DNA of 60,172 nucleotides, from assembly GCA_938003715.1 (NCBI GenBank), contig CALKYK010000517.1, positions 1-60,172 of the forward strand, given 5' to 3'. The position numbers and the translations under genes are program-made. Every line of letters begins with the position of its first letter. Position 1 is the stretch's first letter. The notes beneath the pieces are model-generated. The model did no database searches. It saw only the letters and a program-made list of their open reading frames with translations, and had not been told where the DNA came from. The DNA is from an uncultured Gammaproteobacteria bacterium (GTDB lineage Bacteria > Pseudomonadota > Gammaproteobacteria > Steroidobacterales > Woeseiaceae). Shown here one piece after another: positions 44,723 to 52,485 of this stretch.

Positions 44723-44777
44723 GCAGTCGCCCGCATTCCTATCCCCTCGTGATTGCGCGCCCTCGTCCCCACCCCCT

Positions 44778-44854
44778 GTCATTGCGAGCGAAGCGAAGCA
44801 ATCCACAAACGCCGCATGGTTTGCCGCGTCGGCCTTCGGCCTCCTCGCAATGAC
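44778..44854. repeat. REP-like palindromic element, copy 1
   Basis: Terminal 11-bp inverted repeat GTCATTGCGAG (44778-44788) / CTCGCAATGAC (44844-44854) with imperfect internal pairing. It is the widespread element whose spurious translations read ...CFASLAMT / ...PRND..., as seen in track ORFs 44618-44884(-) and 44753-44935(+). Confidence 0.7.
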
Positions 44855-45024
44855 CGGATCGCTTGGCCGACGACACGCCGTCACGCGCCGACCGATTCAA
44901 TTGCGACCGTACGTACTCGATATACCCGAATTTGAAAGTCGACTTTTTGCGCAAATAGGCTGGATTCAGTTTTCCAGGCACAAAAAATTGGCCAAAAGGT
45001 CTGTCACTATTGAGACGAAAGTGA

Positions 45025-45325: not shown

Positions 45326-48300
45326 ATGGACAGAACAAGTTGGGGCTGGCCGTTTGCTGACCGGAGTCGAGCGTCGGACATCGGCTCGCAAAAGAAGCGA
45401 TTTCAAAATCGACTTTCGTTTTTCCTTTCCGCGCTGATTTTGCCGGGCGTTACGTTCGGTCAAAGCAGCGTCGGCATCGAATACGATCACCTGACCCGCC
45501 AGGGCGTCGATGAACGCCTGCAGTCGGACGGTGCAGACCTGCTGGGCGACCAGATCGACCTCAATACTGGGTCCGTCGTCTTCTCGCACACCGACGTATC
45601 CATTCCCGGAAACTTCGATCTCGAGGTGGCGATTCGACGCACGCGGTCGCTGGGAGAGCGGTACGTCAATGACCACGATTTTGCGGACTGGGAATTGCTG
45701 GTCCCGCGTATTACGACAATCGTCGCGCAGCCGAGGTTCAGCGGCAATCTCGAACCGGCGGACTGGAAGACGAATAACGACCGATGCAATTCGGTCAACG
45801 TACTGGGCCCTGTCACAATCTCCGAAGACCCCTACTGGGTGCCTAATATCTTCGATCCTCGTGAAGACACGCCGGACATGTATATCGTCGAGGATTACGA
45901 GTACTCCAACGGCGTTCTCCTTGAGATTCCCGGGCAGGGATCGCGCCAGATACTCGACATCGGCCCGCAAAACCAGTGGCCCGACGACCCGGGCAATCCG
46001 ACGACGAAGGTTACAACGGACAACTGGTATTTCACGTGTATCGACGAAACCGACCCCGAGGCACCCACGGCGGGTGGTGAAGGATTTGTCGGGACTGCTC
46101 CGAACGGAGACAAATTCACGTTCAACAAACTGATCTACCGAACGACGCCGAAGATGAACGTGGCCAACACGTATCTCGAGCGAAGCACGGCAATCATGCT
46201 CGCGACGAAGGTCGTGGATGTCGATGGCAATGAGGTTACCTATTCGTATCTAGCGAACGGCAGCCTCGACAGCATCGCCTCGAGCGACGGCCGAACAATC
46301 GATGTCGAGTACACGAATGGCCTGATCAGCAAAGTCATCGCAAACCAGGGCTCTCCCGACGAACGCGAATGGGACTACGCGTACAACAGCGGGCCCAGTA
46401 TCGCAACGACTCTGCAGACGGTGACGTTGCCCGATTCCCGCCAATGGACATTCGACCTGAATCAAATGGACGTTATGGCGGACCCGAAATACGACTGCAC
46501 CAAGGCTCCGTATACGGTTTCATTGACGCATCCAAACGGTGCCACAGGCAGTTTCACCTTTTCCGAGACACGCCACCTCAAAGGCAACACCAACGGCAAG
46601 GATGCAACTTCGCTAAGTTGCTTGGGCGGCCCCAAGATCGAGCAGCCTTACTTCGATGCCATGTCGCTCACGCAAAAGACACTTTCAGGCACGAACTATC
46701 CCGATGCAACCTGGACGTACACCTATTCCGGCTATACCGGCGGCACCGTACCGAGCATCAAGTGGACGGAAATGATCGATCCGCTGGGCCACAAGACCCG
46801 CCAGGAGTTCGATCGCGGATCGAGTTTCGAAGGCATGATGCTGAAGAACGAGCGCTTCGAAACCTCGGGCAGTGGCAGCCCATCGCAAACAATAGACCAG
46901 ACGTACCTGATCGAAAGCAGCGTCGGCTCGACCTTTTTGCAGAACACGAACCAGGACAAGCTGCACAAGCCCCGTCGCGAGGATACGACCACGAACACCC
47001 GCGGCACCGATGTGCACACCACGGTGATCGAGTACAACACGACGCAGTCCTCGACCGATTACAGCCATGGCTTTCCGACGAAGATTACGCGGTCAAACAA
47101 TTACTCGGGCATGCCGGCACGCTACGTGGACCGCACCTACGCCCACGATCGCGACGACTGGGTACTCGGACTGGTCGCTACCCTGAGTCGCAACGGGTAA
47201 CTTTTCGATACGCTCGTCTACGATTCCGTCGGACACCTTACCGAGCATCACCGCTTCGGCAGCCTTTTCCGCAAGGCCGGTTACCATGTGACAAGCGGCC
47301 AGAAGGGCGCACTCGCCTGGGTCGAGGATGCGCTTGCGATGCCACGGCGCATCAGCTTCGACAACTACAAACGCGGCCTGCCCGAGCTCATCACCCGCGC
47401 GGACCAATCGACACTGTCGCGCGTCGTCGACGACAACGGCTGGGTCACTTCCGAAACCGACGGCAACGGCGTCACCGTTACCTACGACTACACCGACGCA
47501 GGCTGGCTCAAGACCATCGACCGGCCGAGCGTGCCGGACGCCTGGTCCGATACGACGATCACGTATTCGTCGCTCGGCAACGGAATCGTGCAAACGTCCA
47601 CCCGCGGTACAACCAAGGTAACGACATCGTATGACAGCCTGGCCCGGCCATATCTCGTCAAAACGGAGCCGACGAACGGCGACGGTACGACCAGCTATGT
47701 CGCCACTGACTATGACGCGCTCAGCCAGGTAATCTTTACTTCGTTTCCTGTCGAGTCGCTGCCGCCTCCTCCCACTCCGCTTGACGGAACGTTCACAACC
47801 TACGATTCCCTGGGACGAAAGCTGGTCGAAACAGAAAACGTGGCTCCAAATGCGACCACAAGTTACGTTTACGAAGCCAACCATCGAACAAAGGTAACGG
47901 ATCCCGAGAACAGGATCACATATCACGACTTCCACGCGTTCGGCGACCCCGACGATGCCGAGCTGCATCACATCTACCAGCCGCACAACGGGTCGGCCAT
48001 CAGCACCTGGATGTACCGCAACGATTACGGGCAGACCACGCGCATCCGGCAGCACGGCTTCCATGGCACCGAAGAGCTGGACTATTCGCACTACTTCTAC
48101 ATGGATGCGCAGGAGCGAGTCTGCCGCATGTCGACGCCTGAAGGCGGGCACACCGTTTACCAGTACAACGCCGCCTACGAGATGATCGCCTATGCCAAGG
48201 GTGTCGACGGCAGTACGACGAGCTGCGTAACGCCTGCCGGAAGCAGCAGAGTCGCGCTGGAATACGACGACCTGGGCCGGCTCGAAAAAACGCTGTTCGA

Positions 48301-50212
48301 CGACGCCGATACGCCGGACATCATCCGGTCGTATGACGGCAACGGAAATCTCCTGACCGTCGATCGGGACGCTGCCAGCCCGGCGAACGACGTCGAGTTG
48401 ACATATACGTACGACTCGGCGAACAACATCAGGAGTGAAGAACTGGTAATCGATGGCCGCACGTACACGCTGGGCTACGACTACCACTCGGACGGGCATC
48501 TTGAGCAGCGCACCTATCCCGGTAATGTCGTCATCGACTACACGCTCAACGGGCTCGGCCAGCCGAAGACCGTCCAGAACGGCAGCACCGTGTATGTCAG
48601 CAATGCCGTGTACCACGCCAACGGCAGCCTGGAATCGGCGACCTACGGCAACGGCCATTCCCTGATCAACACCTGGACGCCACGGCAGCAGCTCGACCGC
48701 AACTACATTCACGACGGCGGTACGAACGTCGCCGTCGATCTCGACTACGGCTACAACGCCCGCGGCCAGGTCACAAGCATCACCGACGGTGTGGATGCCG
48801 GCAACAATCGCGTCTACGGCTACGATGACGTCGGGCGCCTGGAGACGGCCAGCGGCCCCTGGGGCAGCGGCAGCTTCGACATCGACCCGCTCGGCAACAT
48901 CCGCTCCAAGACCCTCGGTTCGGTCACGGATACGATCAGCTACGATGCGATCACCAACCGCGCCTCATCGCATACCCGCAGCGGCCAGTCGGCGAGGACC
49001 ATCCAGTACAACGAGACGCTCGATCGCGGCAACGTCACCGATCTCGGCGGCATGGCCTTTTCCTACGACTATTCCGACCAGCCGGTGGCACAGACCGGCA
49101 GCGTAGCCGCGGACTATCGCTACGACGGCAACAGGCGCCGCGCCTACCAGGACCTCGACGGCAAGGAGATCTACTCCTTCTACGATGCCGCGGGCGCGCT
49201 GGTGCACCGGGACGACGATACCGCCGGTGAGGCGACGAATTACATCGCCGCGGCCGGCACGGTCCTCCGGCTGGAAGACGCCGGCACCGGCTATGCGATT
49301 GGGGAGTACACCTTCTCCGATCACCTCGGCTCGCCGCTAGCGGCGACCGGGTCCACCGCACCCGTCACCTGGCGGGAACGCTACAAGCCGTTCGGCGAAA
49401 AGATCACCGACCCGGCAGAGAATCGCGACGAGCCGGGATTCACGAGCCATGTGCAGGACGATGCTACCGGCCTCACCTACATGCAGGCGCGGTTCTACGA
49501 CCCGATGCTGGGACGGTTTTTGAGTATTGATCCGGTTGGCTTTTCACCAGAGAAGCCGTATATGTTTAATCGTTACTCATATGTAGGCAATGATCCTATA
49601 AATTTAGTCGATCCTTTTGGCATGTATGGCTCCTGCGCCGAATTTCGGGATGCTGGCAACACTCAACAGTCTTGTGCCGAAATTGAAGGAATTACGGGTG
49701 TTCCGTTTGATGACGAGCGTGAGCTTGCGCAGGCAGCCGGCAATGCACTGAATGCGCTGTCAGCCGCTGACAAGAATGAATGGGGAATCGCGTTTTCCAG
49801 AAACGAAGACGGTAACTTGACAGCATCGGTGGCTATCAGTGGTTCGTTAGATCCTGATGGAATTGCTTCGGGTGATCCCGCCGGAATTACGATGTCCACG
49901 CTGCTAGACGGAGTCGATAATCCTGTCGGAGACGGCCATACTCATGGCCTCCAAGCCGCCGAGCAATTGCAAGTAGAAAGCCCCGATGATATTAGACTTG
50001 CTCACCAAAAAGCCTATAACGGGCGGCGAAAAGGTGGCGATGGCAAGTTTAACTCCTACGTATATACTGCATCAGGACGGGCTCACCTCATCCGAGGTGA
50101 TTCTTTTCGCCATCCTTTTTCACGAAATCCAACCTCGACCGACATATACCGAGCCACAGATCCATCTGTTGTCCAGCGAGACGTTTTTCGGGTGAGTAGA
50201 ATATTGCCGTAA
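45326..50212 (+). pseudogene. RHS/YD-repeat polymorphic toxin with Sec-type signal peptide; reading frame interrupted by one in-frame TAA
   Basis: ORFs 45263-47200 and 47288-50212 are in the same frame. 47201-47287 is open and protein-like (LFDTLVYDSVGHLTEHHRF...). Many YD repeats are present (VTYDYTDAGWL, YGYDDVGRL, YTYDSANN...). The RHS core end reads YMQARFYDPMLGRFLSIDP...NDPINLVDPFGM. The N-terminus has KKRFQNRLSFFLSALILPGVTFGQ. Confidence 0.85.
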
Positions 50213-50247: not shown

Positions 50248-50706
50248 ATGTGCATAAGAAATTATTCGACTATTGCGACTATTCTGGCGCTCGCGCATTT
50301 GGCCAGCTGCGCGGAACAATCGACTGTGCAGGATAATTCCGTACCAATGGACCCGGATAAATTTTTCACGCTGGCGTGGACAGATGCAAGCTTGGAAAGT
50401 CATTCTTTGTCGTATCCGGGATACAAATGGTGCTGCACCATTTTTTCTGACGAACACCGTGCCGTTAAATCTGTGGTTGCCCACATGGTAGTCAATGGTC
50501 TGGGCAATCTCGATGAGTATGGGTTCGTCGTTGGCCAAACATCATCTTTATACATAGTGGATGCAGCGCCACGATTTTTTGATTGTGGCGACTCCCCGAA
50601 CATCTGTGACGGGAGTTTTCCTTACTTCACTAAGACGTCAAAGGCGTATACCTACATTCTCGATAGGGAATCAGCTGTCGTGATCGAATACTATCCGCAG
50701 ATTTGA
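50248..50706 (+). CDS. Candidate cognate immunity protein (small lipoprotein)
   Basis: 152 aa ORF starting 35 nt after the rhs stop. Low GC like the toxin tip. Lipobox ILALAHLASC. No obvious RBS and no family recognised. The immunity role is inferred from position only. Confidence 0.5.
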   Translation: MCIRNYSTIATILALAHLASCAEQSTVQDNSVPMDPDKFFTLAWTDASLESHSLSYPGYKWCCTIFSDEHRAVKSVVAHMVVNGLGNLDEYGFVVGQTSSLYIVDAAPRFFDCGDSPNICDGSFPYFTKTSKAYTYILDRESAVVIEYYPQI

Positions 50707-50857: not shown

Positions 50858-51220
50858 ATGATCGAGAGATTAATCAAACTAGTAGTCTGTCACCTCATTT
50901 TCTTACTGAACACAGCGATTGCCTGCGACAAACCAATGTCAGTCACGATTCCTGACGGCAATTCGGCCATCCCTCGACAAATGGTTGCGGTTCAGGACGA
51001 GATTCGCAACTACGTGGCGGAGATGGGCGAGTATCTCGAGTGCGTCGCCACGGAGAAGAAACGCTCGCAGCGAGACATCGCGAACCTCACTTCCGAGCTT
51101 CGGCAGTTGCGGCAGGATCAGCTGGACGAGGAATACAACGCCGCCATTGACGAGATGGAGCAGGTCGTTCTGCTGCACAATCGCGAAGCGAAGAAGTTCA
51201 GGGAGAGGGACCGAACGTAG
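50858..51220 (+). CDS. Small hypothetical lipoprotein with a coiled-coil-like C-terminal half
   Basis: 120 aa. AGGTGA sits 5 nt before the ATG. Lipobox NTAIAC. Charged heptad-like LRQLRQDQLDEEYNAAIDEMEQ. Confidence 0.55.
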   Translation: MIERLIKLVVCHLIFLLNTAIACDKPMSVTIPDGNSAIPRQMVAVQDEIRNYVAEMGEYLECVATEKKRSQRDIANLTSELRQLRQDQLDEEYNAAIDEMEQVVLLHNREAKKFRERDRT

Positions 51221-51221
51221 G

Positions 51222-51277
51222 TCGAAGCAACTGTTGCGATGGATTGCTTCGTCGGCCTTCGGCCTCCTCGCAATGAC
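51222..51277. repeat. REP-like element, copy 2 (partial), same orientation as copy 1
   Basis: 51250-51277 is identical to 44827-44854 (CGTCGGCCTTCGGCCTCCTCGCAATGAC). 51239-51277 versus 44816-44854 is 36/39 identical. It also contains the hairpin CGAAGCAA-N13-TTGCTTCG directly after the stop at 51220. Confidence 0.7.
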
Positions 51278-51285
51278 GGGACAGA

Positions 51286-52485
51286 TTATCCGGACGCGAG
51301 TCGCGCGTTTTCCGCCGCGACCTGTCCCTGCGGCGGAGCTTCGTCGAGCGAGGTCACCGGCACGAGGCGCCGCACCATCGCGTGGAAGCGTAGCAGCGTG
51401 TTTTCCTCCGCCGAGAACGGGCCCGGGCGGTAGCCCGTAGTGCGCAGCCCCTTGTGCACGAGCTCGTAGAGCGTGCTGTCGTGGTCGTGGACCGGCTCGT
51501 TGATCGCGATGTTGAGTTCGCGCAGCCGCTCTTCTTCCTTCGTCGGGTTCGGATGGCCGTAGTACGCGGCACGCACCAGGGTCCGGTCGTGGCTCAACGG
51601 GATCAGTTGGAAGATATCCAGCATCTCGGGATACAGGTCGATACCGAGGTTGCCGGCGACGCCGAACTGCACCCACTGTCCCTTGATCTCGCCCGGCACG
51701 CGCTTGTTCGCAAAGTGAAATTTCTCCTGGTACTCGCGCTCGATGTCGACGCTCGACGGCCTGTCCTTCAGTTCGAACACGCCGTAGTTTGCGCCGTTAC
51801 CCAGGTGCTCGCCGATGTCGGTCACCTCGAGCAGGCGAAACAGGCCGGGATGGCCGACCGGAATGTGATAGTTCTCGAGGTAGTTGTCCCACGCCACCTT
51901 CCAGTTAACGGTCCATTCCTGGAACGATTCCTCGCGGAAGCACACGTAGTTCGCGACGTCGTACATCTCGAAGTACTGCGCGGAGTGCGCAACGGTCTCG
52001 GCCACCGTCGGCCCGTCGCCTCTTACGTTCACGAACACGAGACCGTGGAACACCTCGAGCGAGATTTCGTGCATGCCGTAGTCGGCGCGGCTGAAGTCGT
52101 CGAAGTCCTCCTCCTGCGGCACGCCGAGCAGCTTGCCGTCGAGCCTGTAGGTCCAGCCGTGATACGGGCACTTCACGACGCCGCGGCAGCTGCCCTTGCC
52201 TTCGAGCAGGCGCGAGCCGCGGTGCCGGCAGACGTTGAGGAACGCGCGTAGCTCGTCGTCCTTGCCGCGCAGGACCACGACGTTGTCGCGCCCTATCGAT
52301 GCGGTCATGTAGTCGCCGGCCGATATCACTTCGTTGACGTGGCCGACGAACTGCCAGCGGCGCAGGAAGAACGCGTCGTACTCGAGCTCGAAAAGCTCCG
52401 GGTTCAGGTAGGTCCACGGCGCAAGCGGCGAGCCGCCGTCAACCGCCGGTCCGTAGTGCGCCTTTTTTTCTGCCGTTTCGTTCAC
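51286..52485 (-). CDS. Rieske [2Fe-2S] non-haem iron oxygenase, alpha subunit (GbcA/CntA/Stc2-like quaternary-amine monooxygenase candidate)
   Basis: 399 aa. Rieske motif CRHRGSRLLEGKGSCRGVVKCPYHGW. Substrate is guessed from genomic context only. Confidence 0.85.
   Translation of the reverse strand: MNETAEKKAHYGPAVDGGSPLAPWTYLNPELFELEYDAFFLRRWQFVGHVNEVISAGDYMTASIGRDNVVVLRGKDDELRAFLNVCRHRGSRLLEGKGSCRGVVKCPYHGWTYRLDGKLLGVPQEEDFDDFSRADYGMHEISLEVFHGLVFVNVRGDGPTVAETVAHSAQYFEMYDVANYVCFREESFQEWTVNWKVAWDNYLENYHIPVGHPGLFRLLEVTDIGEHLGNGANYGVFELKDRPSSVDIEREYQEKFHFANKRVPGEIKGQWVQFGVAGNLGIDLYPEMLDIFQLIPLSHDRTLVRAAYYGHPNPTKEEERLRELNIAINEPVHDHDSTLYELVHKGLRTTGYRPGPFSAEENTLLRFHAMVRRLVPVTSLDEAPPQGQVAAENARLASG

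What the first reader, a model, noticed from the sequence alone, without database searches (positions are those of the whole stretch)
49625..50212. Rhs C-terminal tip: 195-aa low-GC toxin domain with a JAB/MPN-like metal site (DUF4329-like)
The polymorphic tip follows the core-terminating motif VDPFGM, which ends at 49624. GC drops about 100 bp before the motif (about 49510) and stays low through both downstream genes, which is the signature of C-terminal-tip displacement by recombination. The tip contains FDDERELAQAAGNALNALSAADKNEWGIAF (Glu codon 49778-49780), then GDGHTHG (49937-49945), then 11 residues, then ESPDD (49979-49990). This is an E...HxH...SxxD arrangement like JAMM/MPN metalloproteases but with non-canonical spacing (11 rather than 7). 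It ends with NSYVYTASGRAHLI. From memory this matches the uncharacterised DUF4329 family found at Rhs C-termini. I know of no established activity or cellular target for such tips.
Basis: partly seen in the sequence, partly recalled or inferred. Interest (0 to 1): 0.75.

Follow-up and report, generated by a model that had tools for sequence, protein, structure and literature searches.

The report
Rhs toxin tip, JAB-like, lipoprotein partner
The end of a large bacterial Rhs "toxin-delivery" protein carries a rare, divergent relative of the uncharacterised Tox-JAB-2/DUF4329 metal-enzyme toxins, and its conserved partner gene encodes a lipoprotein, which suggests these toxins attack the cell envelope rather than RNA or DNA as the literature assumes.

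Summary
A 195-aa tip (49625-50209) follows the Rhs core end ...DPVG-x22-DPFGM. GC3 falls from 0.83 to 0.33 at 49511.

The E52...H105-T-H107...S119-x-x-D122 pattern is not chance:
- E, H, H and D are invariant in all nine known relatives and in the E. coli K-12 RhsB tip, a bona fide DUF4329.
- The AlphaFold model (pLDDT 79) finds mostly JAB/MPN/RadC proteins.

Pfam DUF4329 is hit only below threshold (15.6 bits against a cut-off of 28.6). I therefore call it a distant sister of Tox-JAB-2, not a formal member. The subfamily is very rare, about 10 sequences among 1.8 billion representatives.

New here:
- The downstream ORF 50248-50706 is not called as a gene in the public record.
- It belongs to an undescribed 11-member family with lipobox-type signal peptides.
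- It sits next to this tip family in four independent loci.
- A fifth, more divergent tip has an unrelated lipoprotein partner.

With the acidic tips and the Sec signal peptides on the carrier Rhs proteins, this points to a periplasmic or envelope target. That is inferred, not shown.

The window's Rhs gene carries an in-frame TAA where an orthologue has Lys, so it may be inactive.

Verdict: new variant of a known, uncharacterised kind; moderate interest.

The parts
45326..47197 (+). N-terminal part of the Rhs gene. The start codon is uncertain (ATG 45326, or TTG 45263). It contains a Sec-type signal peptide ...RLSFFLSALILPGVTFG|QSS, a weak DUF6531 match, and YD repeats.
   Evidence: ORF list. 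Pfam DUF6531 E 0.0013. The orthologue in a Woeseiaceae MAG (76% identity over 1285 aa) has a clean signal peptide at the same place.
47198..47200 (+). In-frame TAA that splits the Rhs reading frame. It is a nonsense mutation or an assembly error.
   Evidence: The translation reads ...SRNG*LFDTLVYDSVGHL. The orthologue reads ...KRNGKLFDSFVYDAAGH without interruption. The same stop is in the public record.
47201..49510 (+). Rhs/YD-repeat shell and most of the Rhs-associated core. Host-like composition, GC3 about 0.8.
   Evidence: PF05593 RHS_repeat E 8.8e-14. TIGR03696 78 bits. GC3 values.
49511..49624 (+). Low-GC end of the Rhs core (GRFLSIDPVG...NDPINLVDPFGM). It holds the paired DPxG motifs of the autoproteolytic core end. 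It is the left part of the imported cassette.
   Evidence: GC3 0.34 against 0.83 just upstream. This is the only DPxG-x-DPxG match in the window. Orphan cassettes elsewhere start with the same short core end.
49625..50212 (+). Toxin tip, 195 aa plus stop. It is a divergent Tox-JAB-2/DUF4329-like JAB-fold domain.
Key codons:
- C4 49634-49636
- C17 49673-49675
- E52 49778-49780
- H105 49937-49939
- H107 49943-49945
- S119 49979-49981
- D122 49988-49990
- Y145 50057-50059
- G151 50075-50077
   Evidence: Pfam DUF4329 sub-threshold hit. Relatives. Invariant columns. AF2 model pLDDT 78.9, pTM 0.77. Foldseek hits to JAB/MPN/RadC.
50248..50706 (+). Cognate partner (immunity candidate), 152 aa. It has a signal peptide with the lipobox-like LASC (Cys21 = 50308-50310) and an invariant Cys-Cys (62-63 = 50431-50436). 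The predicted core is one helix plus four strands.
   Evidence: Homologous to the genes directly downstream of tip homologues: E 5e-9 and 0.007. The family has 11 members, all with an aligned Cys after a hydrophobic segment. No Pfam match. AF2 pLDDT 63.9. No significant fold match. Not called as a gene in the source record.
50858..51220 (+). Second downstream ORF, 120 aa. It has a lipoprotein-type signal (…LNTAIAC) and a charged helical C-terminal part. It lies inside the island, and its link to the tip is unproven. The low-GC block ends inside its first ~40 codons.
   Evidence: ORF list. PROSITE-like lipobox match. GC3 0.55 rising to 0.80-0.85 after about 50978. No family match.
44816..44869 (+). 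Left copy of a 54-nt direct repeat that brackets the whole 6.4-kb Rhs island.
   Evidence: the repeat finder family D1: 83% identity with a 32-nt exact core. The 24-mer occurs only twice in 60 kb, against 0 expected.
51239..51292 (+). Right copy of the 54-nt direct repeat bracketing the Rhs island.

Best explanation
The segment 49625-50209 is the toxin tip of a Sec-exported Rhs/YD polymorphic toxin.

How it arrived. The tip came as a low-GC cassette made of a core end, the tip and a partner gene. The cassette recombined into the conserved core end near 49511.

What the tip is. By analogy with studied Rhs proteins, the tip is enclosed in the YD shell and cut off at DPFGM by the core's aspartyl autoprotease. 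The freed domain has a JAB/MPN (deaminase-like) fold and a JAMM-type metal site. H105, H107 and D122 would hold a Zn2+. E52 would activate the water. S119 would help where it is present. The tip is a distant sister of Tox-JAB-2 (Pfam DUF4329).

The partner. The next gene, 50248-50706, encodes a lipoprotein and is the cognate immunity protein.

Site of action. Every partner found next to a tip of this family is a lipobox protein. The carrier Rhs proteins have Sec signal peptides. The tips are acidic. I therefore infer that the toxin works outside the cytoplasm, as a metal-dependent amidase or (iso)peptidase on an envelope substrate. Candidate substrates are peptidoglycan cross-links or the lipoprotein-peptidoglycan bond. 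It would not be a nuclease.

What is shown: the anatomy, motif conservation, the fold resemblance, the conserved toxin-partner synteny and the signal peptides.
What is inferred: metal binding, hydrolase activity, toxicity, immunity, the periplasmic site and the substrate.

In this genome the Rhs gene has an in-frame TAA, so the locus may no longer be delivered.
For: Rhs anatomy:
- RHS repeats match Pfam.
- TIGR03696 ends exactly at DPFGM.

Cassette import:
- GC3 steps from 0.83 to 0.33 at 49511.
- Homologues occur as orphan core-end + tip + partner cassettes next to transposase genes.

JAB relationship:
- DUF4329 is the only Pfam hit for the tip (E 0.016).
- Relatives P0003 and P0004 also hit it (best E 4.6e-4). 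P0013 hits Prok-JAB.
- hhalign of the family against the E. coli RhsB tip (a bona fide DUF4329, 137 bits) gives E 0.0015 over 105 columns. The Glu, HTH and SxxD are in register.
- E52, H105, H107, D122, Y145 and G151 are invariant in 10 sequences.
- In the AF2 model (pLDDT 78.9), HxH sits at the end of a strand and S/D at the start of the next helix.
- Foldseek PDB: about half of the top 12 are JAB/MPN enzymes (BubCD, BRCC36, bacterial Ubl-DUB, Rpn11, CSN5) and two are Npl4 MPN entries. The best is E 4.5e-3, prob 0.92.
- Foldseek viral: MPN, RadC and JAB proteins, plus Xop411 p25, which is DUF4329-like. E is as low as 1.9e-4.

Partner:
- It is homologous to the downstream genes in L001, L002/L003 and L007.
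- The 11-member family has an aligned lipobox-type Cys.
- The divergent tip P0013 has an unrelated partner with a canonical LLGC lipobox.

Envelope site:
- Sec signal peptides are seen on the window Rhs, on its orthologue and on P0013.
- Tip pI is 4.1-5.7 in 8 of 9 family members.
- No secretion-system genes are nearby.
- Zhang et al. noted that the immunity protein of Tox-JAB-1 is also a lipoprotein.
Against: - No profile hit reaches a curated threshold: 15.6 bits against 28.6.
- Foldseek E-values are marginal, TM-scores are about 0.3-0.4, and the hhalign probability is only 17%.
- Ser119 is replaced in 4 of 10 sequences.
- The model coordinates could not be inspected, so the geometry of the metal site is unverified.
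- Several lipoboxes are non-canonical (for example VMGC and MLGC, and H at -4 in the window).
- The partner has a weak n-region and no obvious Shine-Dalgarno sequence.
- A lipoprotein partner shows where the partner sits, not what the toxin cuts.
- Zhang et al. 2012 argued from RadC that toxin JAB domains could be nucleases.
- The Rhs gene is interrupted by TAA at 47198-47200, so the locus may be a decaying relic.
- Nothing here tests toxicity or immunity.
Confidence: 0.6

Rival explanations
1. The tip is a cytoplasm-acting nuclease or RNase built on the JAB/RadC scaffold. Zhang et al. 2012 proposed this for Tox-JAB domains, and later in-silico papers label DUF4329 an 'RNase'. On this reading the lipoprotein partner intercepts the toxin during transit or has another role.
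For: - Zhang et al. argue that toxin JAB domains lack the Ubl-tail tunnel and resemble RadC.
- RadC proteins are among the best viral fold matches: E 7e-4, TMt 0.52.
- Later papers call DUF4329 an RNase, with no experiment behind it.
Against: - All five toxin-adjacent partners have lipoprotein-type signal peptides. Immunity proteins of nuclease toxins are normally cytoplasmic (established knowledge).
- The tips are acidic, pI 4.1-5.7, which is unusual for nucleic-acid-binding toxins.
- No paper in the library reports an assay.
- A 2024 preprint states that the activity and substrate are still unknown.
Confidence: 0.15
2. The locus is a non-functional relic. The Rhs gene is a pseudogene because of the in-frame TAA, so the tip is no longer exported or delivered. 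Whatever the tip once did, it does nothing now in this organism.
For: - TAA at 47198-47200 sits where the 76%-identical orthologue has Lys and an open frame.
- The same stop is present in the public assembly.
- No start codon with a signal peptide follows the stop.
- The island is flanked by direct repeats and inserted among catabolic genes.
Against: - It is a single nonsense codon with no further frame damage over about 4.9 kb.
- The tip, the partner ORF and all catalytic residues are intact.
- A strain variant in a sibling sample has an identical tip 3' end.
- The stop could be an assembly error at about 14x coverage or a very recent mutation.
- This rival concerns present activity, not what the domain is.
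Confidence: 0.3
3. The JAB resemblance is superficial. The tip would be a different or new fold with another activity (for example a deaminase-fold enzyme or a non-enzymatic binder), and the E/HxH/D pattern would serve a structural role.
For: - All sequence-profile and structure matches are below conventional significance.
- Cytidine deaminases also appear in the fold list.
- PDB sequence searches find nothing.
Against: - Three independent lines agree: the Pfam hits, the Foldseek neighbours and the motif register with a bona fide DUF4329.
- The four invariant polar residues are exactly the JAMM metal and catalytic set.
- The deaminase signatures ([HC]xE and PCxxC) are absent from the sequence.
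Confidence: 0.07

Closest known systems
Tox-JAB-2 / Pfam DUF4329 (PF14220), for example the E. coli K-12 RhsB tip with its partner YhhH (Imm-NTF2-2, PF15631)
   Same: - It sits at the C-terminus of Rhs, straight after the DPxG[LM] core end.
- It has the same signature: E, H[ST]H, S, D.
- The gap between HxH and Ser is long: 11 residues here and 13 in RhsB.
- It shares the ...SY/F-x-x-x-[TP]SG... strand after the helix.
- It has Cys residues at its N-terminus.
- The activity is unknown in both.
   Different: - It scores only 15.6 bits against PF14220 (cut-off 28.6), while RhsB scores 137 bits.
- Pairwise BLASTP to RhsB is not significant.
- The partner is a lipoprotein of an undescribed family, not Imm-NTF2-2.
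- The carrier Rhs has a Sec signal peptide rather than a PAAR/T6SS context.
Tox-JAB-1 with Imm65 (Bacteroidetes Rhs toxins; Zhang et al. 2012)
   Same: Both are JAB-superfamily tips on Rhs proteins. In both, the immunity protein is a lipoprotein with a signal peptide and lipobox and with conserved Cys.
   Different: - Neither the tip nor the partner hits the corresponding Pfam models at E <= 1.
- The Tox-JAB-1 signature is NxxxE; this tip has N51-E52.
- Tox-JAB-1 is restricted to Bacteroidetes.
JAMM/MPN+ isopeptidases (Rpn11, CSN5, BRCC36, AMSH) and bacterial Ubl-system JAB proteases (BilC/BubCD type); RadC
   Same: They are the best structural neighbours of the model. They share the same set and order of metal and catalytic residues: Glu, HxH at a strand end, then Ser/Asp at a helix start.
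   Different: - The canonical spacing is HxH-x7-S-x2-D; here it is x11.
- The tip itself does not hit the JAB or Prok-JAB profiles.
- There is no ubiquitin-like partner in the locus.
- The protein is exported and acidic and has a lipoprotein inhibitor.
- The likely substrate is therefore not a Ubl conjugate.
Periplasm-acting polymorphic or T6SS effectors with exported immunity proteins (Tae/Tsi amidases, Tle/Tli lipases, colicin M/Cmi)
   Same: The logic is the same: an exported or lipoprotein immunity protein marks an envelope-targeting toxin (established knowledge).
   Different: The catalytic fold is unrelated. To my knowledge and in the searched literature, no JAB-fold member of this class has been demonstrated.

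Membership tests
Rhs/YD polymorphic toxin | RHS/YD repeats that form the shell | tested here: met
   PF05593 E 8.8e-14 with 4 stretches. The source record lists TEN_YD-shell.
Rhs/YD polymorphic toxin | Rhs-associated core domain ending in DPxG...DPxG[LM], followed by a variable tip | tested here: met
   TIGR03696 scores 78.1 bits (cut-off 32.5) and ends at residue 779, which is 49624. The motif is DPVG-x22-DPFGM.
Rhs/YD polymorphic toxin | Cognate immunity gene immediately downstream | tested here: inconclusive
   A conserved partner gene sits in 4 independent loci, and a different lipoprotein sits in a fifth. Protection itself was not tested.
Rhs/YD polymorphic toxin | Intact full-length reading frame | tested here: not met
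   In-frame TAA at 47198-47200. The orthologue has Lys there.
DUF4329 / Tox-JAB-2 | Match to PF14220 at or above the gathering score (28.6 bits) | tested here: not met
   Tip 15.6 bits. The full-length relatives score 19.4 bits (P0004) and 14.0 bits (P0003). The best E-value among the trimmed family members is 4.6e-4. The E. coli RhsB control scores 136.9 bits.
DUF4329 / Tox-JAB-2 | Signature residues E, H[ST]H, S, D (Zhang et al. 2012) | tested here: met
   E52, H105-T-H107, S119 and D122 are present. E, H, H and D are invariant; S is kept in 6 of 10. All are in register with RhsB.
DUF4329 / Tox-JAB-2 | Deaminase-like / JAB alpha+beta fold | tested here: met
   AF2 pLDDT 78.9. Foldseek neighbours are mostly JAB/MPN/RadC and include the DUF4329-like Xop411 p25. 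Scores are marginal: best E 1.9e-4 viral and 4.5e-3 PDB.
DUF4329 / Tox-JAB-2 | Imm-NTF2-2 (PF15631) immunity partner | tested here: not met
   Neither the partner nor any of its 10 homologues hits PF15631. The YhhH control scores 92 bits. The fold search finds no NTF2 match.
JAMM/MPN+ metalloprotease (Pfam JAB / Prok-JAB) | Canonical motif E...HxH-x7-S-x2-D | tested here: not met
   The residues are present, but the spacing is 11 instead of 7. The spacing varies from 11 to about 21 within the family.
JAMM/MPN+ metalloprotease (Pfam JAB / Prok-JAB) | Profile match to PF01398 or PF14464 | tested here: not met
   The tip has no hit at E <= 1. Only P0013 hits Prok-JAB, at E 0.008-0.08 and below the cut-off.
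JAMM/MPN+ metalloprotease (Pfam JAB / Prok-JAB) | Zn2+ binding and isopeptidase or amidase activity | not testable with these tools
   This needs metal analysis and enzyme assays.
Tox-JAB-1 / Imm65 | Profile match, NxxxE motif, Bacteroidetes origin | tested here: not met
   No Pfam hit other than DUF4329. The sequence has N51-E52, not NxxxE. The host is proteobacterial-like: the nearest Rhs orthologue is in a Woeseiaceae MAG. Only the lipoprotein nature of the partner is shared.

The most novel reading that the evidence does not exclude
JAB-fold polymorphic toxins as a whole would be periplasm-acting metallo-(iso)peptidases. That covers this subfamily, Tox-JAB-1 and possibly canonical Tox-JAB-2/DUF4329, which is widespread in Salmonella and E. 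coli Rhs effectors. They would cut amide bonds of the cell envelope, such as peptidoglycan cross-links or the Lpp-peptidoglycan link. This would be a new mechanistic class of envelope-targeting antibacterial effectors. The 'RNase/nuclease' label now carried in the literature would be wrong.
Probability: 0.3. Interest if true: 0.7.

Novelty: new variant of a known kind. Interest (0 to 1): 0.45.

Why it matters
Tox-JAB-2/DUF4329 tips sit on Rhs effectors in more than 150 Salmonella serotypes and many pathogenic E. coli (PMC10469887, PMC7216683). Yet their activity and target have never been measured. They are labelled 'RNase' by inference only.

This window provides three things:
- a very divergent sister lineage in which only the putative metal and catalytic residues survive, which pinpoints what to mutate;
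- a consistent and previously unnoticed clue to the site of action, namely lipoprotein partners and Sec-exported carriers;
- a new immunity-protein family that gene callers miss.

If the envelope-target reading is right, it adds a new enzyme fold to the set of periplasmic antibacterial effectors. It also corrects an annotation that is spreading through genome papers.

Tried and rejected
- Word-indexed homologue search with the tip alone found nothing.
- Exhaustive phmmer gave 14 hits at E <= 0.001. One is the window's own protein. I took seven as true relatives. I set aside six multi-stretch hits (P0002, P0006, P0008, P0009, P0010, P0014) as repeat or low-complexity matches. P0009 was inspected and is a tandem-repeat protein.
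- PDB sequence searches with the tip and with the family profile found nothing meaningful.
- NCBIfam gave no hit for the tip.
- PHROGs gave no consistent hit.
- tblastn against plasmids found no match.
- The genome-contig scan with the tip found no relative.
- hhalign of the family against Xop411 p25 was not significant: prob 0.6, with only helix 1 aligned.
- The viral-contig scan with p25 gave only near-identical phages, useless for a profile.
- The supplement of Zhang 2012 is not held, so no Tox-JAB-2 alignment could be taken from it.
- The partner protein has no Pfam match and no significant PDB fold match. A PepSY-like YpeB hit at E 1.8 is too weak to use.
- The deaminase reading was rejected because the [HC]xE and PCxxC motifs are absent.
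- Tox-JAB-1/Imm65 membership was rejected because there are no profile hits.
- A second orphan tip between the two downstream ORFs was looked for and not found.
- The promoter and terminator scan was uninformative.
It was redone with database homologues.
Full report

Yes. The + strand ORF 47288-50212 ends with ...RFLSIDPVGFSPEKPYMFNRYSYVGNDPINLVDPFGM. VDPFGM occupies 49607-49624. The remaining 195 codons (49625-50209, stop 50210-50212) are the tip.

The NCBIfam Rhs-associated core model TIGR03696 (78 bits) ends exactly on the Met of DPFGM. RHS repeats are found upstream.

- Glu 49778-49780;
- HTH 49937-49945;
- 11 residues;
- SPDD 49979-49990.

Two coordinate labels were loose. The ranges given for 'GDGHTHG' and 'ESPDD' cover only HTH and SPDD.

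GC3 in 30-codon blocks is 0.83-0.90 up to 49510 and 0.33-0.53 from 49511 on. The junction therefore lies 38 codons inside the conserved core end.

The low-GC block does not run through both downstream genes. In ORF 50858-51220, GC3 rises to 0.75-0.85 after about 50978.

The composite E...HxH...SxxD pattern arises in 0.6% of shuffles of the tip.

**2. Relatives**

The tip is nearly an orphan.
- The word-indexed search of 5.8 billion proteins found nothing.
- An exhaustive phmmer of 1.84 billion representatives gave 14 hits. One is the window's own protein. I took seven as genuine: P0003, P0004, P0005, P0007, P0011, P0012 and P0013.
- A profile search added P0015 and P0016.
- Context mining added one more tip, in L007.

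Most relatives are attached to Rhs core ends or are orphan core-end + tip cassettes. Some sit beside transposase genes.

In the alignment, E52, P100, H105 and H107 are invariant. With the E. coli K-12 RhsB tip added, E52, H105, H107, D122, Y145 and G151 are invariant. S119 is kept in 6 of 10 sequences.

**3. What family is it?**

Pfam gives one hit for the tip: DUF4329. The E-value is 0.016 and the score 15.6 bits, against a cut-off of 28.6. The match covers profile positions 2-100 of 116.

P0003 and P0004 also hit DUF4329 below threshold. P0013 hits Prok-JAB. The others hit nothing.

Zhang et al. 2012 (PMC3482391) equate DUF4329 with 'Tox-JAB-2'. They describe a deaminase-like fold with signature E, H[ST]H, S, D.

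As a positive control I fetched E. coli K-12 rhsB.
- Its tip scores 137 bits on PF14220.
- Its partner YhhH is Imm-NTF2-2.

hhalign of the family against the RhsB tip gives E 0.0015 over 105 columns, with a probability of only 17%. The Glu, HTH and SxxD are all in register. RhsB has 13 residues between HxH and Ser. The 'non-canonical' spacing is therefore a family trait.

The AlphaFold2 model built with 10 sequences has pLDDT 78.9 and pTM 0.77. It places HxH at the C-terminal end of strand 100-106. S119 and D122 sit at the start of helix 120-135. E52 sits just after helix 31-49.

Foldseek against the PDB returns BubCD, BRCC36, a bacterial Ubl-deubiquitinase, Rpn11, CSN5 and Npl4 MPN, followed by cytidine deaminases. 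The best hit is E 4.5e-3.

Foldseek against viral models returns MPN, 'proteasome subunit', RadC and JAB proteins. It also returns Xanthomonas phage Xop411 p25, which is itself a 23-bit DUF4329 match.

Each line is individually weak. Together they agree: the tip is a distant sister of Tox-JAB-2 within the JAB superfamily. It is not a member by Pfam's own threshold.

**4. The partner gene**

ORF 50248-50706 starts 36 nt after the tip's stop. It encodes MCIRNYSTIATILALAHLASC..., a signal peptide with a lipobox-like LASC.

The genes immediately downstream of the tip homologues in L002/L003 and L001 are homologous to it: BLASTP E 5e-9 and 0.007.

A profile search gives an 11-member family.
- A Cys is aligned after the hydrophobic segment (LMGC, LSGC, LLAC and similar).
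- A Cys-Cys pair is invariant.
- No member has a Pfam match.

L007 supplies a fourth toxin-partner pair. L008 and L010 carry orphan partner genes.

The most divergent tip, P0013, is followed by a lipoprotein with a canonical LLGC lipobox. Its mature part is not detectably related to the ORF 50248-50706 family.

So five of five toxin-adjacent partners are lipobox proteins. This holds even where the partner's sequence is not conserved.

The partner's model has pLDDT 63.9, with a confident core of one helix and four strands. It has no significant PDB neighbour.

The source record's gene calls skip this ORF.

**5. Carrier and context**

The Rhs reading frame runs from about 45326 to 50212 but contains TAA at 47198-47200.

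A Woeseiaceae MAG carries an orthologue that is 76% identical over 1285 aa. It has Lys at that codon, an open frame and a clean Sec signal peptide. The window protein has the equivalent signal segment. P0013 also starts with a Sec signal peptide.

No PAAR, VgrG or other secretion genes are present. The neighbours are methylamine, betaine and carnitine catabolic genes.

The whole 6.4-kb island is bracketed by a 54-nt direct repeat, at 44816-44869 and 51239-51292. These are the only two copies in the window.

The window corresponds to a 590-kb contig of ENA assembly ERZ869942. A sibling sample holds a 98.3%-identical variant of the tip 3' end and the partner.

**6. Mechanism**

Shown:
- the Rhs anatomy;
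- the imported cassette;
- the conserved E/H/H/D set;
- the JAB-like predicted fold;
- the conserved synteny with lipobox partners;
- the Sec signals;
- acidic tips, pI 4.1-5.7 in 8 of 9.

Inferred:
- The tip is released by the Rhs aspartyl autoprotease.
- It binds Zn through H105, H107 and D122.
- It acts as a hydrolase.
- Its immunity protein is periplasmic, so it acts in the envelope.

JAMM enzymes cut isopeptide bonds. The most economical substrate guess is therefore an envelope amide bond, such as a peptidoglycan cross-link or the Lpp-peptidoglycan link.

The main rival is the nuclease/RNase idea of Zhang et al., which later in-silico papers repeat. It fits exported partners and acidic tips poorly. 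I found no experimental test of either view.

**7. Verdict**

- The thing is a new, very rare variant of a known but uncharacterised toxin kind.
- It is paired with a new lipoprotein immunity family.
- In this genome it sits on an Rhs gene that carries a nonsense codon.

Interest is moderate. Its main value is the testable hint that JAB-type polymorphic toxins target the envelope.

Noticed in passing
window 47198-47200: An in-frame TAA splits the Rhs gene into ORFs of 645 and 974 aa in the same frame. A 76%-identical orthologue in a Woeseiaceae MAG (L005) has Lys there and an uninterrupted frame. The cause is likely a recent nonsense mutation or an assembly error.
   Followed up: yes
window 44816-44869 and 51239-51292: A 54-nt direct repeat (83% identity, 32-nt exact core) brackets the whole low-GC Rhs island of 6.4 kb. 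These are the only two copies in 60 kb. The left copy is part of a palindromic REP-like element (GTCATTGCGAG...CTCGCAATGAC, about 44775-44856). The island interrupts a methylamine/betaine catabolic gene cluster.
   Followed up: partly
window 50248-50706: The partner (immunity-candidate) ORF is not among the genes called in the public source record (ENA ERZ869942 NODE_4). It is called in a sibling sample (P0019). There a G-to-T change at 50686 shortens it by 6 residues, and residue 2 is Trp instead of Cys.
   Followed up: partly
window 50858-51220: The second downstream ORF (120 aa) has a lipoprotein-type signal (LNTAIAC) and a charged helical tail, with no family match. The low-GC block ends inside its first ~40 codons, so the right-hand recombination junction may lie within this gene. 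It could be the immunity gene left behind by a displaced earlier tip.
   Followed up: partly
window 51448-51489: Ten mismatches clustered in 42 bp separate the window from the public record's copy of the same contig (L017). The rest of the 5.9 kb compared is identical. The cluster lies inside the Rieske oxygenase gene on the minus strand. No explanation was found.
   Followed up: no
L016 8400-8783 (E. coli K-12 yhhH): YhhH is the Imm-NTF2-2 partner of the bona fide DUF4329 tip of RhsB. As annotated, it starts with a signal-peptide-like segment (KKILFRNCVIVSLFVFTYNTWA|Q) ahead of the Pfam domain (residues 60-127). If this is real, canonical Tox-JAB-2 immunity is also exported. An internal Met40 start would remove the segment.
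   Followed up: no
L019 1-6305: In the locus of P0013, a 1440-aa DUF6531 protein ends with a stop. One codon later, in the same frame, the 937-aa Rhs protein starts with its own Sec signal peptide. A lipoprotein (LLGC) unrelated in sequence to the window's partner follows. The sizes recall a split two-protein (TcB/TcC-like) arrangement.
   Followed up: partly
L002 2307-2615: Directly after the toxin-partner pair of P0015 there is another orphan Rhs core end plus a different tip (MNLYAYVGNDPVNLVDPRGLYGQGEGW...). An rve-type transposase gene lies upstream. This is a typical array of displaced tip cassettes.
   Followed up: no
L008 2250-2741; L010 2128-2673: Members of the partner family occur without an adjacent tip gene, as orphan immunity genes. 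In L010 the gene sits next to a secreted DUF4440 (NTF2-like) protein.
   Followed up: no
window 49634-49636 and 49673-49675: Every Rhs-attached tip of the family with its N-terminus intact has exactly two cysteines, both in the N-terminal ~20 residues (C4 and C17 in the window's tip). The model is very confident there (pLDDT above 90). This could be a disulfide, which would fit an extracytoplasmic life. E. coli RhsB also has an N-terminal Cys pair but with different spacing.
   Followed up: partly
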